Shown: in pieces, positions 9,257-18,982 of the stretch | Layout of the letters: each line of letters begins with the position of its first letter | Numbering within the stretch: position 1 is the stretch's first letter | From: Seison nebaliae | Lineage: Eukaryota | Length of the DNA stretch: 20,000 nucleotides | Assembly (NCBI GenBank): GCA_023231475.1 | Contig: JALJEE010001557.1 | Coordinates: 47,644 to 67,643, forward strand | Direction of reading: 5' to 3' | Notes under the pieces: model-generated | What the model saw: the letters and a program-made list of their open reading frames with translations, nothing else | Told to the model about the DNA's origin: nothing | Databases searched by the model: none | Translations under genes and position numbers: made by a program

Positions 9257-12200
9257 ATGGCACGTCGAAAGCATGATACGTCACTTAATGTTTATCATTT
9301 TCATGAACAGTCGTTCTTAATATCCATAAATATTTCAGCAACTTATTTCTACGCAAGAAGAATGGGAAGAAATGTTAGAGAAAGATGGACTTTGCAGTTA
9401 GTTCTCCTTTTAGCCAAATTCTTTAGAGAGATTATTAAAAAAAGTCTTGGAAAATTATTCTACGTTATAAAAATTTTAATTTTAATTGGAAGATGACTGA
9501 TAGAAAATATTTTCTTTATTATAGTTATATAACATTATGGTTAGAGTAGTTATGAAATGAATGAGATTTCGAGATTTTATGAGAAAAAATGAATTTTCGA
9601 TGAATGAAAAATTGAGAAAGAGATAAATTAAATATTATTAAATAGTTATAGATGTTTTCGGTGAATTTGCTGGACGATGTTCGGCAATGGACAATATATT
9701 CAGTAGGTTCCTTCATACCGAAGCACCAGAGCCCGATCAAATATTCTTCTTTGCGGTGAATAATTTTGAAAAATTATTAATTTACTTTCTGTTCCTTCAG
9801 TTGTTGATGTGTTTCAATTATGGACTGGTCCTTGTCGAGCGATGGACAATGATTTCCGTACAATTCGCAATTTATTTGACTCATCAATTTTATCATTTTA
9901 TTCTGTTCGTTTTCTTTCTCCCTTTTACTTTCTTTAATTATTATAAACTTCCTCTAATCATCTCCTAATTAATGTGATAGGCATGTGCTGATAAAATAGA
10001 CTCGCTAGACAAATATCGTGGAAAATGTGAACCTTGTTTTTTATTCTATTCGGTTCGTTTCTATTATCCTTGAACTTCATTTATCGAGATTTTAGGGAGG
10101 AGCATTAGTTGCAGCAGTAAGAGGAGCGAATGCGCCTGATCTTACCGAGACGATGAAACAGATGGCTAACAAAGAAATATTGATACAAAAAGGAGAAGCA
10201 ACGAGAGTTGAAATCAAAGATCCGGCTATCGCTCTAATCGAAAGAGAGGAGCAAATTCAAATGGAGAAACAACGAGTGATCGATAGTGAAGGTTAATTTT
10301 TACCCAACATTTTTTTAGGAAAATATCTTTTGGTTCAATTAGATATTATCTTCTATGGAATGAATTCACTTTATGGACATCAATTTCTTCTGCCATGTAA
10401 TTTGATAACTTTTAATTTTCCTGTGACAAATCCTTTCTGTTCCCAAAACTACTTGTGGAATGTCTCCCTATTTTCTATTGAAAAATTTGTTCTTGAAACA
10501 TTTCCAAATTGTCTAATTTCTCTATTTTCTAGCAATGGTGAGAAATTTTATTACAACTGCTCTCATTAAGCCGGATATCGTGGCTGACGGAAAAGTCGAT
10601 CTAATGTTGGAAGAGATAGAAAACGCAAATTTTGTAGTTGTATCTCAAGTGACGAAAACGTTTACAGAAGATGAAGCTAAAGAGTTTTATAAACATCATC
10701 GTGAAGAAGTTGTGGTTTTTTTCGAAAAACAAAATAATAATAAAATCTTGTCAGTTATTCTTTTATGAATTGGTGGATTTCATTATAAGTGGAGAATGTA
10801 TCGCCGTGGCCATAACATTAAAATCATTATATAATATCAAGACGTTGGATGACGTAGTTAATCGATGGAGATCAGTTATCGGTCCATGGAATATGGGACA
10901 AGGAACTCAAGGTGAGAATGATGGAACTTTAAGGAAGAAATATGCTTCAGATGAAATTAAAAATGCCATTCATGGTCCTGATAAGGCAGCTCAAGCGAAA
11001 AAAGAATTGGCCTTATTCTTCCCCAATCTCATCATTCCTCCGGAAATTATCAAAAAAATCGTTGACCAAACTGATAAAGATAAGGCGGATGTGATTGATA
11101 AGAAGAGTTCAGTTCAACGTGAACGGACAATTGCAATTATTCGCCCGAAAGCAAATGCTTCATTGAAAGGTTTATATTCATTTTCTTCGATTAATCCTAA
11201 TACAAATTTAAATGATTAGTTGAGATATTAGATGCGATCAAAGAAAAAGGATTCAAAATTGCCATGAACAAGGAAGTGACATTGGAAGTAGAAGATGCTC
11301 AAAAAATTTATGAAAAATTCCAGGAAGAACCATTTTATGAAGGACTCATTAATGAAATGACAAAGTTGCATTTTTAAATTATGAAAACATTTATCGTATT
11401 TACATCGATTTAGTGGTCCGTTAATGGTTCTGTGTTTAGTCAGTGAGAATGCGATAGAGAAATGGAGAGGTTATTTGGGACCAAAAGAAAAGAAAGATTT
11501 CCCCGCATTTATTGACAGTTTCCGTGCTAGATTCGATATTGTCGATTCGCCAATCAACACTTTGCATGGTGCGTCTACTCGAGCTGAAGCGAACGCTGAA
11601 TTGGCATATTACTTCAAATTGGAGCAGACGGTGGCAATTATTCAAAATGATCCAAAAGTCAACCGAGGTTCATTTTCGTCGTTTGAGAAAAGAAACATAA
11701 AAAATTTTTAAAAACTTAGATCGAATTATTTATCAAATGGAAGATTCGGGATTTATCATCAGTTCGGAAATACGAATGAATTTCACCGAAGAACAAATAA
11801 GGGAACTTTATGCAGAAAAAGTGGATGAAGAGTGGTTCCCCAAATTCGCTCGATATATGACAGAGTTAATAATTTTGATAATTCAACTTTTTTAAATTGT
11901 GGGTTTTTCTAGTGGGGAAAGTGATATTTTATTATTGACAGGGGAAGACGCTATCGAGAAATGGAATACAATGATGGGACCGTATGACCCGGAAGAAGCT
12001 AAAGAGACAGCTCCCGACTCGTTTCCTCAATTTTGACTTTCCTTAATTCTACATTTCCTTTTATAGTTTACGTGCTATGTATGGTAGTAAATTGCCTCAA
12101 AATGCAGTACATGGTCCATCCAATACGGAAGAATTTGAAAGATTTATGAAACTTTTGTTTCCAGATTGTGAGAAGGATGAAAAAGGAATATATACTGGTC

Positions 12201-12299
12201 CTAATATTGATGATCTTGGTTTTTTTGGATTGTTAAATTATTTTTTTGAAATTCTCTTTTTCAGGCGTTGAAAGAAAATCTATTGATTCAAACGGTTAA
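9257..12299 (+). CDS. NME8: NME8/NME9 (TXNDC3/TXNDC6, outer-arm dynein IC1-like) thioredoxin + 3 NDP-kinase domain protein. Exons 9257-9289, 9339-9396, [9646-9755 or 9801-9904], 9981-10052, 10096-10291, 10533-10708, 10755-11169, 11220-11364, 11414-11667, 11720-11864, 11913-12020, 12067-12218, 12265-12299
   Basis: Thioredoxin domain: MARRKHDTSLN/QLISTQEEWEEMLEKDGLC/IVDVFQLWTGPC../ACADKIDSLDKYRGKCEPCFLFYS/GGALVAAVRGANAP, matching the NME8/9 Trx domain. Three NDK domains follow: TALIKPD..NAIHGPD, TIAIIRP..NTLHGAS and TVAIIQ..NAVHGPS. All joins keep frame. Confidence 0.92.
9646..9755 (+). other. Alternative thioredoxin active-site exon A (IIDVFGEFAGRCSAMDNIFSRFLHTEAPEPDQIFFFA)
   Basis: Acceptor ..aaatag at 9645, donor GTGAAT at 9756. 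Phase 1 in, phase 0 out, open frame, paralogous to exon B. Confidence 0.8.
9801..9904 (+). other. Alternative thioredoxin active-site exon B (IVDVFQLWTGPCRAMDNDFRTIRNLFDSSILSFYS)
   Basis: Acceptor ..ttccttcag at 9800, donor GTTCGT at 9905. Phase 1 in, phase 0 out. Closest to canonical VVDVYQxWCGPC. Confidence 0.88.
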
Positions 12300-13128
12300 C
12301 TTTTGCTTTTTAGTAAAATCACTAGAATATAATTGAACAATAATGGATGAGGGGAAAATAATTTTAACTACTACTTTTTTAGGTTTCTTTTACTGGGCAT
12401 TAGAGGCTAAATCTAAAATGAGACGAGGTCGCGCTACTAGTATTAGCTCATGAAATAAGAAATATAAATGAAATTAATAATGTTTTAGTCTTTCTTCAAA
12501 TTAAAAGTAGAAAAATTAGGAAACTAGTAGAATGTGTAGACTTTAATTTTTCTTATCTTTTATTTATTTTTCAGAATAAACCACTCGACTTCTTAAATAC
12601 GTCGTATACGAACATTAATTTCCCCAATAATTTATTTATTTATGAAGACGCGATTACAATGCACGCGATTGTATTTGCAAACACTTTAATTTTTACTATT
12701 ACATTTTAACATTTTATTAATGGAATATTATAGTTTTAATAAATTTTCATTCTATTCAAACTTGATATATTTCATCTTTCTTTCAATCTATCTGTAAATT
12801 CTTTTCTGAAAATTATCACCTTCTTGTTTATTTTTACATATATATCTATTATAAATAATCTTATTTCAAATCATCTAATGATACTCTTTCTGGTTTTAAT
12901 AAGCATTATTAGATGGGAGTATTAAATAAAATAAATAAAACAAAATGAATAATAATCCTGTTGGAATAGGATTATTTATAATTATCATAATGGAATATCT
13001 TATGTTTATTGCAATAACTTTAAATGAGATAAAATAGAAAATGAAGAAATTTTCGTATTAATTTCTTCATTAAAAGAAACGATTAAAATTTATAAAATTT
13101 CCGCTCAAACATTATAAAAAAAAAGAAA

Positions 13129-13419: not shown

Positions 13420-13614
13420 AAAAAACTTTTGAAAGAGATATCAAGGATCTTTCCCTTTTCCCCAAATTGACGTCATGTCCACTCCTAATTTATTTTCTGA
13501 CGTTAACATCGTAAAAATGAGAAATAAAACATTATTTGAAATTAAAATTTTTTAATAATACATAATAATTATTATAATTTAATATATTTCTTTCAGATAT
13601 CTCCATTCCATTCA

Positions 13615-16600
13615 ATGTCTCTAGAATTTGTACAATTTCGTGGATTAATTCGAAGAAATTTCACAATAATCCGTAGACATTTCACATTTCTTTTAACAGT
13701 TCATTTTCTTTCTCATTCATCTACAAATCTATCACATTCTAGTGTATAATTATACCGATAATATTTTGTTTAATTGTAATTGGAAGTGAAAGTTTAAAAG
13801 AAGATTCACTTCCATCAATTGGAACGATTTTGAGAGAGTCACCAGAATTCACTCAATCGATCCATTCAGAAGAGAACAAATTCTATCAACATTATTTCTC
13901 GAGAAAGATTCCATTCAAAAAACCGAATTCAAAACATGAAATTCTCATATTTGAAGAGAAGAAAAATTCGAGTGAGAAATTTCAAGAAATTTTGAATGAT
14001 AATCAAATTCGATTTTCGTTCGTTAATAATTCAAGTGAAATCGAAACGAAATTGGCATTGAATTGGAAGACGATAATTTTTGGAGTGAAATTCAAGAATA
14101 CCATTTCAATTCATTTTCAATATAATAATAAGAAGAGTTCGAAATCGTTTTCTGATATAACGGAAATCGATGAAGGAATTCAGGAATTTCGCGATTTTAT
14201 CATCTCTGGAAATAATGACCGTTCATGTATTTATGCTTATGGTCTCTCCAATGATGATCATGAATGTTATGTGAAATTGAGGAATGATAAAGGAATTTAT
14301 TATTCGTTTCTTCTTCTTCTTAAATCAATGGGAATTGAAGAATTCGATCAATTCAATTGGTCTTTCCAACTCCATTACACTAATGAGACTATCGAATCAT
14401 TTAAAGATGAGAAAACGAGTTCGATTTCACAAATCAATTCCATCTCGTTAATTCTTCTACCGTTATTGGTGAGTGGAATTATCACTCCCATTCTTATGGT
14501 AATGATCGAAGAGAAGGAGACACAAGTGAGACATGTCATGATCATTATTGGCATGAAAATTTATATTTGGTGGTACAGATTTTTTCTTCTTCATTTTTTC
14601 CTTTTCTAAATTTCAGAATTTTTTTAGGATTGCATGGTTTTCTCTTATTATTCTTGTGAGCATTATTCAAAGTATTTTTTTTATAATTTTAACAATCATA
14701 TTCGACATCTTCTCGGACGGATCGAATAGATTCGAATTGGCAATCGTCATCTTTTTATACGCATGTTCATTCACTACTTTCTCTTTCGTTTTTTACTTAT
14801 TCTTCGATCGTCCGAAAACTTATATGAATTTCTTGACGATTTCTGATATGATTCTCAATTTCCTTTTCGTCATTCCAATGGTCATGATAGGAGTGGATGT
14901 TCATGTACCGAAAGTGATGTCTATTCTTTTCTGTTTCAATCCGTCTTTCCCCTTCCAAATCTATTTGACAAAAGTTATCTCAATTTTCAACAATTACAAA
15001 ATCATTTAAACCTATTCATTTCTAGTTAGATAATGAGAATGAGAAATATTCAGAATTCCTTCAGAACGAATTAGATAATCGTCAAGATATTGGCAATCTA
15101 TTGACCAGTACAGAAATCATAATTTATCAATTTGTCATTACCATATTATATTTGATTATAACGATAATATCCGATCATTTCATTAATAGTTCCCTCCATT
15201 TTCTCATGTTCAAATGAAATATTTTTTTAGAGAAATATGCAGCAGATGATTTGGAGAATGGGAATGTATTGATGGAAGTGAAGAATTTAAAAAAGATTTA
15301 TCATAAAAAACGATTAATTCCTAAGAAATATTATCAGTCTGATGATTTGGTGGCTGTGAACGATCTCTCATTTAAGATCGAACGTGGAGAATTGTTAGCA
15401 TTGATCGGTCATAATGGTGCGGGAAAAACGTCATTAATTAAATGTCTCATTGGAATGGAGAAATGGAATGATGGAAGTATCTCGATGAATGAGAAGAATT
15501 CCATCGGAATTTGTCCTCAAGAAAATACGATTATTAAACAATTAACATGTTATGAGAATATTTTAGCATTCTCTTCAATCAACGGACAATATCAATGTGA
15601 TAAGATTAATAGTGTTCTCTCACAATTAGGTCTATTATCTATGAGGAATAAGAAATCTGGTGGATTGAGTGGAGGACAAAAGAGGAAATTATCGTTGGCG
15701 ATGGCTGTAATTAGTCAACCACAAATCCTCATTCTAGACGAACCAACAACTGGTATGGATCCTCAAAGTCGTCATAATGTCTGGAAATTTTTAAAAAATT
15801 ATAAAATGTATGGTTTGGATGATGGTTTGAATGGAACTTTGGCACCATGTATCATTCTCTCCACTCACTACATGGACGAGGCGGATATCGTTGGTGACAA
15901 TAAACTGATGATGGCACACGGTCAATTACGATGTTATGGCACTTCACTCGATCTTAAAATGGAATTCGGTTCTGGGAAATATTTGACAATAACAAAAAAA
16001 ACGGGGAAAACATCAAAGGAGAATAATTTAATTATTAACCAAATTCTCCAAACGAAAGACATCAAATTAGAAGAGGAGACGAATGAATTATTGAAATTTT
16101 TCATCTCAAGTAAACTTCCTTCCATCACTTTTTTGGAAACCATCAAAAAAGTTCAAGAAATGCAGGATTTGAAACGGATTTATCGTTTCATAATCAATTC
16201 CATTACTTTGGAACATTTATTCCTCAAATTGAACAAAGAAGAAAATGAGAGTGTGGAATCATTAAATGGAACGATTAGTAATCAATCGGTTGAATTGCAA
16301 GAAATGGATCGTATTCATCGAGATTCCGATAATATTATCAGAAATGATGGAAATGACGATGGAATTAATCCATATAATTATTTAGTAAATAAGTCCTCAA
16401 TAAAATCGGATAATATTCTCATTTGGTACAATATCATCTTTGTGGAATTCATGAAAACTTTAACGAATTTCAAATATTCCATCAGTCGAATATTAATACC
16501 ATTATTAATGACCAGTCTCTTCTCATTCGTCATTAAACAATTAGAGAATTATGTTGAGAAGAAAGAAGAAGAATTGAAACCTTTGGAATTAGTTTTATCA

Positions 16601-18894
16601 TCTATTACCTCGAAGAATTTGGATGGAAGGAAAAAATTTGATTTCAATTCAATTTCTTTATTTACCAATGAATCATCATTTTGTCCATCATTCGTCCAAC
16701 AACGACCATTTAGTTCATTACCAAACGATTTCCAATATTCTTATACGAATTCCAATTCGACAATAAATTTGATTTCCAGTTCGAATTATTTCCATTTAAT
16801 GGAATTCTTCTATTTTACAATTATTTCTTGTTGGAAGAATAAAATCGATAATATAATCGAATTAATTTCCGTCAAAGATCATTCGATTTATCTCAATTTC
16901 TTTGGGACATCATCAACAACATCATCCGCTTTCAGTTCCATGTTAATTCCCATGACATTCACTGGATTAATTTATTCATTTGCTATTGATGTGGCTGAAG
17001 ATCGAATTAATGGAACGAAAAAACAGATGTTATTGACGAAGGCGACAACGAAAGTTTTATGGATATCTCTTGCAACTGCTGCAATAATTCAATTATTGAT
17101 CATGTTCATTTGTGTGATTATTATCATCTTTATAGCAGAGATACATATGTTAACATCCATTCAATCTGTAATCATTTTATTCTTTTTCTTTCTCGTTTGT
17201 TGTCCGATGACATTATTTCTTTATTATCTTCTCTCATTCTTCGGGAAAAGAATGGATGAAGTGACATCGATTATGAGTATCGCCATAATTCCATCAAATG
17301 TCGCTTATCTTTTAGTGACGTTTGTGAAGAATCGTAATAAGAAATTAACAATTCATTATATCCTCTCTGCCATTCTTCCACCATATAACATGTATGGAAT
17401 TTATCATTTCCTTCAACTCATTTACGACGAGAATGATGGAAATGTTTCATTCTCAGAATATCTGGCATTTGATAATGGAATTTTTTGGAGTTTCATCTGT
17501 TCATTCATTTGGCTCATTATATCCATTCTCTTATTGAATCGAGTAGAATATGTTTTCAATGAAACGGATCACAATCAATTTAAAGATGAAAATAAAAAAT
17601 TAGTTCATGAAATCTCATCGAAATCAGAAGAAGTTGAAGATGAGGAAATAATTGTAACAGAACAATTGGAATTAGAAAATAATCCATCAATCCGATTCCT
17701 CGTTTATCATTTATATAAGAGATATGATAATTTTTTTGAGTTTGTCAAAACCATCTCAAAATTCTTCAATTCCATATCGTGCTATAATTGTCTAATGAAA
17801 TTATCGAAAAAGAATATTCATTCGAATAAGAAGAACGCATTAACTGATGTGACGATTGCTTTCCGTTCAAAAGAAATTTTCGGTCTATTGGGACCGAATG
17901 GTGCAGGGAAAAGTAGTTTGATGAATATCATGGTAAATTCTACGATTCCTGATTATGCCGTCATGAAATGGTTCCATAAGAAAAAGAAGGAAAATATAAT
18001 TGGATATTGTCCTCAAACTAATCCACTTTATTCCATGTTTACCACCGAACAACATTTAGCCATATACGATTCGATTAATAATCATCAAATGCTCAAATGG
18101 AAATGTTGGAAAAATAATCGAATTAAATTTTTATTAGATTATTTCAATTTAACTCCTTATGCTGGAACATTATCAAAGAATTTATCTGGTGGCAACAAAA
18201 GAAAATTAATATTGGCCATAAGTATTTTAAGGAATCCTGATTTGTTGTTATTAGACGAACCGTCAAGTGGAATGGATCCATTTAGTCGGAGGAATTTATG
18301 GAAAATCATCAAAAAAACCATCACGACAAATTCGGATCGTGCTACAATTCTCACTTCACATTCGATGGATGAAATTGATGAATTATGTTGTCGCATCGCT
18401 ATTCTGATCAATGGAGAATTGAAGTTTTTTTTTTGTTATTTATTAAAAATTTTAAAAATTTTTTTCGTTTATTCTTCAAATTCGACAGATCGATCGGATT
18501 GAAAGAATATTTAAAGAATAAATATAATTCAGGATATGTTCTTCATTTGAAACGGAATATAGAGAAAATCGATCGAAATGAAATGTTGAAATTGATCACA
18601 GACATTTTCAATAAGAAAAAGAAACATACAACTGATTTAACAATTTCCGTTGTGGAGATCGAACATTTTAACGACTATCAAAAGATTCGTATCGACAAAC
18701 AACTGATTAATGAGAACGCGATCGACATATCGAATTCCATCGATCTCTACGATGTGTTTGACGGATTGGAAAATTTGAAAAACGAAGATTTGTGTTTCGA
18801 ATACGAATTTACACAAATGTCACTCGAACAATTGTTTTTGGATTTGGTGAAGTTCAGCGATTCGTCACCAATCATTGATAAACAGATTTATTAA
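13615..18894 (+). CDS. Full-length ABC transporter, subfamily A (TMD-NBD-TMD-NBD), about 1673 aa. Exons 13615-13698, 13743-14572, 14628-14973, 15026-15188, 15231-18423, 18489-18894
   Basis: ABCA-type N-terminus QFRGLIRRNFTIIRR and EEKETQVRHVMIIIGM. NBD1: GHNGAGKT, LSGGQKRKL, LILDEPTTGMDP, STHYMDEAD. NBD2: GPNGAGKS, LSGGNKRKL, LLLDEPSSGMDP, TSHSMDE. C-terminal QMSLEQLFL. A possible in-frame upstream exon 13475-13501 could join via intron 13502-13596. Confidence 0.95.
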
Positions 18895-18982
18895 TTCTCA
18901 TACAATCGCCAAATAATTTATTGTTTTGTAATTCCTTTACAATTACTATAGTTTAAATAAATTCATTGAAATATTTCAAAAA

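What the first reader, a model, noticed from the sequence alone, without database searches (positions are those of the whole stretch)
9646..9904. Duplicated, mutually exclusive exons swap the thioredoxin active site of NME8/9
Seen: two adjacent paralogous exons occupy the same slot between ..EKDGLC and ACADKIDSL... Exon A (110 nt) is IIDVFGEFAGRCSAMDNIF.. and exon B (104 nt) is IVDVFQLWTGPCRAMDNDF... Both are phase 1 in and phase 0 out, with intact splice sites and no stops despite strong divergence. Including both shifts frame to a TAG early in the next exon, and skipping both also shifts frame, so only A-or-B is productive. The 45-nt spacer is a normal intron size here, so exclusion is probably regulated or NMD-enforced rather than steric. 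Established: the canonical motif is WCGPC. Both variants lack the N-terminal nucleophilic Cys (AGRC, TGPC), so neither is a classical dithiol reductase. Inference: an isoform switch giving two axonemal (dynein-associated) Trx surfaces, e.g. sperm flagellum versus somatic cilia. I know of no described mutually exclusive active-site exons in this family.
Basis: partly seen in the sequence, partly recalled or inferred. Interest (0 to 1): 0.85.

Follow-up and report, generated by a model that had tools for sequence, protein, structure and literature searches.

The report
Swappable thioredoxin exon in cilia protein
A rotifer gene for a likely dynein-arm subunit of cilia (NME8) carries two intact, interchangeable versions of the exon for its thioredoxin active-site loop, an arrangement also seen in other rotifers and in bivalves, which likely gives different cilia different versions of the same motor accessory.

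Summary
Confirmed and wider than reported. The window is Seison nebaliae NME8 (thioredoxin + 3 NDK). Exons A (9646-9755) and B (9801-9904) are phase 1/0; A+B or neither gives an early stop. GenBank models already use A or B. Exon A is not dead: against a second Seison lineage its listed changes give dN/dS about 0.10. The same exon is swapped in annotated isoforms of 5 of 13 named species read (Seison, Brachionus, an oyster with three versions, two scallops) and is tandemly doubled in 9 of 21 spanning metagenome loci. In Brachionus the swap is WCGPC versus YGGPL; in scallops both keep WCGPC, so the common change is the loop-helix-strand surface, not redox on/off. Corrections: one GenBank model joins 33 nt of A to B in frame; 'sperm versus soma' is doubtful because probable bdelloids (no males) keep both exons under selection. 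No Seison RNA was available, so usage and exclusivity here are inferred. One origin before the rotifer-mollusc split is suggested but not resolved.

The parts
9257..12453 (+). NME8/TXNDC3-type gene (thioredoxin domain + three NDK domains), GenBank SNEBB_003212, 14 coding exons per isoform
   Evidence: spliced mapping of KAI3384477-80.1 on the window; Pfam
9339..9396 (+). constitutive upstream exon, ends in phase 1
9397..9645 (+). upstream intron, 249 nt (about five times the gene's usual 43-52 nt)
9646..9755 (+). alternative exon A (110 nt; FAGRC motif); strongly diverged from homologues but under purifying selection; donor GTG, the only non-GTT donor of the gene
9646..9678 (+). 33-nt short form of exon A (internal donor at 9679) used with exon B in one GenBank model, in frame; RNA support unknown
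9756..9800 (+). 45-nt spacer intron between A and B; no unusual fold (z -0.2)
9801..9904 (+). alternative exon B (104 nt, the conserved length; WTGPC motif)
9981..10052 (+). constitutive downstream exon, starts in phase 0; holds the premature stops of the A+B (9997) and skip-both (9989) forms

Best explanation
Exons A and B are an intact tandem-duplicated pair in the Seison NME8 gene that is likely spliced one-or-the-other, so that a predicted outer-dynein-arm subunit would come in two forms differing only in the thioredoxin active-site loop, the following helix and strand, likely for use in different ciliated cell types. Shown: anatomy, frame logic, purifying selection on both exons, the same swap in other rotifers and bivalves, single-exon inclusion of each type in intron-free contigs of related rotifers. 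Inferred: (i) Seison splices both; (ii) exclusivity is kept by regulated splice-site choice with frameshift and decay of double or null products as the back-stop; (iii) the protein sits on the tail of an outer-arm heavy chain like human TXNDC6/NME9; (iv) the swap changes a binding or redox-sensing surface rather than a reductase activity, because both Seison forms lack the N-terminal Cys; (v) the choice follows cilium type (for example locomotory/feeding versus internal or sperm axonemes). The pair likely dates at least to the rotifer ancestor. Odds: functional alternative exons about 0.9; dynein-arm surface swap tied to cilium type about 0.6.
For: Frame and splice sites. GenBank has A-only and B-only models. 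Second Seison lineage: no indel in either exon (all 4 gaps in the spacer), exon A 9 synonymous to 5 non-synonymous among 14 listed changes, dN/dS 0.10, p 0.0004; B 6 to 0 in the listed part. Same-length isoform pairs differing only within this exon in Brachionus calyciflorus, Saccostrea echinata (three versions), Pecten maximus, Argopecten irradians; the Brachionus models come from BRAKER with RNA-seq if they are the set of PMC7943196 (passage). Tandem phase-1/0 pairs in 9 of 21 spanning genomic loci, pN/pS 0.19-0.29 for both exons. Unnamed monogonont-clade proteins on contigs too short for introns carry the first type (8 of 9 clusters) or the second type (1 of 9) alone. Best PDB hit is human TXNDC6 in the respiratory axoneme, 8j07 (E 4e-66; 1.2 A over 130 columns); it binds the tail of an outer-arm heavy chain (PMC10886578 passage). 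The exon encodes the end of strand 2, the loop, helix 2 and strand 3 in both models. [quoted passage not shown]
Against: No Seison junction read was seen. The tool cut the list of differences; if up to 9 unlisted changes were all non-synonymous in A, pN/pS would be 0.40 (p 0.03). In-frame double-inclusion models exist in Seison (1 of 4) and Brachionus (2 of 4), so exclusivity may be leaky or those models are prediction artefacts. 8 of 13 named species read showed one version only, and 12 of 21 spanning loci have one exon, so the pair is dispensable in many spiralians. No tissue, localisation or binding data for any isoform. The structure models lean on the alignment and say little about A's own stability. 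The sources disagree on NME9 in sperm (present in mouse sperm flagella per PMC7785291; absent).
Confidence: 0.6

Rival explanations
1. Redox on/off switch: the exon choice gives a dithiol-competent or a redox-dead thioredoxin on the dynein arm, and Seison has kept a remnant with one Cys in each form.
For: Brachionus WCGPC versus YGGPL; oyster WSGPC versus two WCGPC forms. Redox state modulates Chlamydomonas beating and outer-arm ATPase (PMC10886578 passage). Both Seison exons keep the C-terminal Cys, with no listed change in the second lineage.
Against: Both scallop versions keep WCGPC; Seison, the third rotifer lineage and L004/L023 lack the first Cys in both versions. Human NME8 and NME9 show no detectable thioredoxin activity (PMC13256974, PMC2777172 passages). 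Most differences between versions lie in helix 2 and strand 3.
Confidence: 0.15
2. Sperm-versus-soma switch: one exon is for sperm flagella only.
For: Mammalian NME9 is restricted to non-sperm cilia and NME8 is testis-enriched. Seison has permanent males and its exon A is the fast-evolving one.
Against: A third rotifer lineage, by elimination Bdelloidea, keeps both exons at pN/pS about 0.26; its identity is inferred, no named bdelloid sequence came up. It could still hold in Seison or bivalves alone.
Confidence: 0.15
3. Exon A is a decayed or rarely used duplicate; B is the working exon.
For: A is far from all homologues (best pair score 46 against 88 for B), lowers the Pfam thioredoxin score below the cut-off (19.3 against 27.1 bits), is 6 nt longer and has an atypical donor.
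Against: Purifying selection and intact frame and donor in a second lineage about 15% diverged; GenBank models use A in 2 of 4 isoforms.
Confidence: 0.05
4. The pair is a Seison-specific re-duplication or gene conversion that only looks like the pairs of other rotifers.
For: A and B share DVF and AMDN, not seen in the other rotifer exons; the exon tree does not place them.
Against: Position-specific profiles put B with second exons (11 bits) and A weakly with first exons (5 bits), matching the order in the gene; monogononts and the third lineage share the pair, a monogonont-only duplication is rejected at p 0.04, and Seison is nested among them (PMC12256650 passage).
Confidence: 0.2

Closest known systems
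NME8/TXNDC3/SPTRX2 (DNAI8), sea-urchin IC1, Ciona IC3
   Same: N-terminal thioredoxin domain plus three NDK domains (architecture per PMC2777172, PMC8754002 passages); ciliary, assigned to the outer dynein arm; human NME8 also has two transcripts whose ratio matters in ciliary dyskinesia.
   Different: The human variant (TXNDC3d7) is described as an exon-deleted isoform (name; in-frame skipping is recalled), not a choice between homologous exons. Seison lacks the N-terminal Cys in both forms.
Human TXNDC6/NME9 (PDB 8j07) and Chlamydomonas LC3/LC5 (8glv)
   Same: Best solved relatives of the thioredoxin domain; bind outer-arm heavy-chain tails; NME9 is cilium-type restricted.
   Different: Separate genes with intact CXXC; diversification by gene duplication, whereas here one gene swaps an internal exon.
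Tandem-duplicated mutually exclusive exons (general class; PMC5740500 passages, PMC8373072 term search)
   Same: Adjacent homologous exons of like length and phase; 60% of human clusters are frame-incompatible when joined, as here.
   Different: No NME8/NME9/thioredoxin mention in the main text of either survey; supplements not seen.
RefSeq/GenBank isoform models of Brachionus calyciflorus, Saccostrea echinata, Pecten maximus, Argopecten irradians TXNDC3/6 homologues
   Same: Same exon, same boundaries, equal-length isoforms.
   Different: Automatic annotation only; Brachionus and oyster versions differ in the CXXC cysteines, Seison's do not.

Membership tests
NME8/TXNDC3 | N-terminal thioredoxin domain followed by three NDK domains | tested here: met
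   Pfam: NDK 3 stretches; Thioredoxin 27.1 bits for B form (cut-off 23.5), 19.3 for A form
NME8/TXNDC3 | Closest named relatives are TXNDC3/6 homologues; groups with rotifer orthologues | tested here: met
   tree without the exon, SH-aLRT 98, quick search, long Seison branch
NME8/TXNDC3 | Component of the outer dynein arm | not testable with these tools
   inferred from 8j07 and reviews
NME9/TXNDC6 | Single NDK domain after thioredoxin | tested here: not met
   three NDK stretches; definition
Classical dithiol thioredoxin | CXXC with N-terminal nucleophilic Cys | tested here: not met
   FAGRC and WTGPC; human TXND6 has Cys39/Cys42
Mutually exclusive exon cluster | Adjacent homologous exons, same phases, similar length, intact splice sites | tested here: met
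Mutually exclusive exon cluster | Each exon under coding constraint | tested here: met
   (list of differences incomplete)
Mutually exclusive exon cluster | Each exon spliced singly into mRNA of this species | tested here: inconclusive
   GenBank models of unknown evidence; relatives' intron-free contigs; no Seison RNA junction seen
Mutually exclusive exon cluster | Never both in productive mRNA | tested here: inconclusive
   full A+B stops at 9997 but an in-frame 33-nt A + B model exists
RNA-structure (docking/selector) controlled clusters | Conserved competing intronic pairings with compensatory changes | tested here: inconclusive
   none in Seison; a 7-bp spacer-to-exon-2 pairing in 6 relative loci with no compensatory change

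The most novel reading that the evidence does not exclude
A single exon duplication in the common ancestor of rotifers and molluscs created a splice switch on the outer-dynein-arm thioredoxin that is set by cilium type and, in some lineages, turns its CXXC on or off: a splice-level counterpart of the mammalian NME8/NME9 split, and a natural experiment on what the dynein thioredoxin does. Hints: rotifer first exons group with one bivalve type (SH-aLRT 84) and that type also lies first in locus L005; the AU test neither rejects this (p 0.76) nor a rotifer-only origin (p 0.49).
Probability: 0.25. Interest if true: 0.75.

Novelty: new variant of a known kind. Interest (0 to 1): 0.55.

Why it matters
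How the thioredoxin subunit modulates axonemal dynein, and what the NME8/9 thioredoxin domain is for, are stated as open in recent reviews. Here one gene supplies matched pairs of proteins that differ only in 12-20 residues around that site, in Brachionus with and without both cysteines, in culturable animals with existing RNA-seq. That makes 'redox chemistry versus binding surface' and 'cilium-type specialisation' directly testable. The splice mechanism itself is ordinary, and the isoforms already sit unremarked in public annotations.

Tried and rejected
No whole genome was held. No RNA holder listed for the stretch; the laid contigs were genomic or had no cover (X6, X7), so junctions could not be tested. 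Assembly artefact: rejected. Dead exon A: rejected. Hairpin shortening the Seison spacer: z -0.2, 121 of 300 shuffles as stable, rejected. Inverted repeats around the Seison exons: only AT-rich 70-80% matches. Spacer-to-exon-2 duplex in relatives: 2 of 8 loci beat shuffles (2/300, 9/300), no compensatory pairs; a lead only. Steric exclusion by intron length as a general rule: spacers of 109-243 nt in relatives argue against; not excluded in Seison. ESM Atlas on a neighbour gene of L054 gave no usable taxon. Careful tree did not finish; the quick tree is used. AU tests with the Seison exons were not obtained (one search gave no answer; one search was run on 30 rows without them and without the long-branch L004/L023 second exons). 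Fold search of the whole model was dominated by NDK domains. No complex prediction was run: no dynein partner sequence was at hand. Literature: 'TXNDC3 + mutually exclusive + exon + thioredoxin' 0 papers, 5 papers, two read as passages with no such exon, 79 papers, none of the 20 listed holds 'mutually exclusive exons', 130 papers, 15 listed, none on this gene by title; 'Seison + SNEBB' 0. The library lacks most subscription journals and supplements of the exon surveys were not seen.

Full report
IDENTITY. A long exon of the gene matches a protein labelled SNEBB_003212 of Seison nebaliae at 100%. Its cluster holds four GenBank isoforms, all of which map exactly on the window from 9257. Pfam gives one thioredoxin and three NDK domains, the NME8/TXNDC3 architecture (PMC2777172, PMC13256974, passages). 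The best solved relative is human TXNDC6 in the respiratory axoneme (8j07; E 4e-66).

OBSERVATION. Exon A (9646-9755, 110 nt) and exon B (9801-9904, 104 nt) lie 45 nt apart, have AG/GT ends, are open and fit between exons ending 9396 (phase 1) and starting 9981 (phase 0). A+B stops at 9997, neither stops at 9989. They are homologous far beyond chance (0 of 5000 shuffles). Contigs of three runs from two studies carry the region unchanged. GenBank uses B in one model, A in two, and in the fourth 33 nt of A joined to B in frame through a donor at 9679; I could not find how that annotation was made, so these models are not counted as RNA evidence. Nine of 13 introns on the A path are 43-52 nt; all donors begin GTT except that of A.

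IS EXON A ALIVE? Low-depth contigs in 3 of 4 runs laid cover A, the spacer and B with about 15% differences; they fit a second Seison lineage, which PMC8351084 reports for this species (section 6), though a related species is possible. All four gaps fall in the spacer. Of 14 listed changes in A, 9 are synonymous and 5 not (dN/dS 0.10, p 0.0004); in the listed part of B, 6 and 0. The list was cut; about 9 further differences lie somewhere in 9633-9836, and if all were non-synonymous in A, pN/pS would be 0.40 (p 0.03). Both forms model as a thioredoxin fold with the exon giving the end of strand 2, the active-site loop, helix 2 and strand 3 (alignment-driven, weak evidence).

RELATIVES. Isoform clusters were read for 13 named species (at most 15 members listed per cluster). 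Five show equal-slot variants confined to this exon: Seison; Brachionus calyciflorus (WCGPC versus YGGPL, 584 aa each, plus 2 of 4 models joining both in frame); Saccostrea echinata (three versions, 810 aa); Pecten maximus and Argopecten irradians (two versions, matching across the two genera). Eight showed one version (Magallana, Acanthosepion, Lineus, Tubulanus, Owenia, Lingula, Gigantopelta, Mytilus californianus); absence from annotation is not absence from the genome, and an unnamed Mytilus-like protein carries the other bivalve type (P0192). B. calyciflorus genes were predicted with BRAKER on RNA-seq in PMC7943196 (passage); that the accessions belong to that set is my assumption. A metagenome scan gave 57 loci; 44 hold the downstream exon, 21 span both flanking exons, and of these 9 have two tandem phase-1/0 exons and 12 have one (several loci are near-duplicates). 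Two partial loci (L005, L024) are also double. Both exons are constrained: pN/pS 0.27 and 0.25 in five loci of one lineage, 0.19 and 0.29 in L004/L023. Unnamed proteins of the Brachionus clade lie on 1.7-2.0 kb contigs, too short for introns, and carry a single version, first type in 8 of 9 clusters and second type in 1: indirect RNA evidence of single inclusion.

AGE. In a quick tree without the exon, Seison, the Brachionus clade and a third lineage (L003, L012, L021, L054, P0124) form one group (SH-aLRT 98). The third lineage has compact introns and is by elimination most likely Bdelloidea (inference; gene compactness; no named bdelloid was retrieved). Its second exon shares a YGG motif with the Brachionus second version (SH-aLRT 99), and a monogonont-only duplication is rejected at p 0.04. 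With Seison nested in Hemirotifera (PMC12256650 passage) the pair likely dates to the rotifer ancestor. Seison B scores 11 bits towards second exons, A 5 bits towards first exons, but A and B share motifs of their own, so conversion or re-duplication is open. Shared origin with bivalves is hinted (SH-aLRT 84; same order in L005) but unresolved on 34 columns (p-AU 0.76 against 0.49 for a rotifer-only origin). L004/L023 have a conservative first and a derived second exon, and the oyster has three versions, so repeated duplication is also plausible.

MECHANISM. Exclusion: exon lengths of 104-110 nt make double or null inclusion frameshift in every case seen; that is the commonest situation in human clusters (60%, PMC5740500 passage). 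Spacers are 109-243 nt in relatives, so length-based steric exclusion is not general; in Seison (45 and 41 nt) it is not excluded. No RNA structure stood up. Function: TXND6/LC3 binds the tail of an outer-arm heavy chain and how its redox chemistry acts is unclear (PMC10886578 passage); human NME8/9 show no detectable thioredoxin activity. The cysteines are swapped in Brachionus and the oyster but not in scallops, Seison or the third lineage, so the shared effect is a new loop-helix-strand surface. NME9 is confined to non-sperm cilia in mammals (PMC11779644, one passage; PMC7785291 cites it in mouse sperm flagella), which makes cilium-type choice the most likely purpose. Sperm-only use is doubtful if the third lineage is bdelloid. 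A further untested idea: the first type dominates monogonont transcript assemblies, and Seison, which lacks the rotatory corona, has the most diverged first exon, as expected if the first exon serves coronal cilia.

NOVELTY. The class is well known. I found no description for NME8/9 (main texts and listings only, no supplements, library incomplete), and the scan held no note on this gene; it did note a comparable alternative thioredoxin exon in ERdj5. Papers seen as passages: PMC8351084 (plus section 6), PMC12256650, PMC13256974, PMC2777172, PMC8754002, PMC7943196, PMC10886578, PMC7785291, PMC6859573, PMC11779644, PMC5740500; PMC8373072 as a term search with no hit. Verdict: real, selected, widespread and apparently undescribed; function inferred. 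New variant of a known kind, interest 0.55.

Noticed in passing
window 4190-4522 (+): Single-exon ORF of 110 aa with a hydrophobic N-terminus and four copies of MDPFAFGGKL-GKR: a neuropeptide precursor for an amidated peptide; likeness to buccalin/allatostatin-A is recalled, not tested.
   Followed up: partly
L003:1407-1545, L010:868-1016, L012:395-531, L020:2765-2904, L054:4865-5007, L055:1166-1305: Spacers keep 137-149 nt and a conserved (C)CAC[CT]AT element that can pair with ATGGTGG in the second exon, looping out its acceptor; 7 bp, one-sided changes only.
   Followed up: partly
window 9397-9645: The intron before exon A is 249 nt, about five times the gene's usual size, and about 125 nt in the second lineage; may hold regulatory elements.
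   Followed up: no
window 12295-12325: GenBank isoform KAI3384479.1 maps with a 31-nt last intron, shorter than any other in the gene, giving a shorter C-terminus.
   Followed up: no
L004:1445-1551 and L023:2951-3057: An unnamed lophotrochozoan lineage has a 107-nt second exon with no cysteine in the motif (W[AS]GKS) and a strongly derived helix, still under purifying selection.
   Followed up: partly
P0345 versus P0298 (Lingula anatina): Two Lingula isoforms differ in the N-terminal 30 residues upstream of this exon, suggesting alternative first exons.
   Followed up: no
window about 13600-18900 (+): By eye from the sequence: an almost intron-free gene with two Walker-A-like stretches, resembling an ABCA transporter; no search run.
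   Followed up: no
window 1-2580 (+): By eye from the sequence: 3' part of a gene resembling a Slo-type potassium channel; no search run.
   Followed up: no
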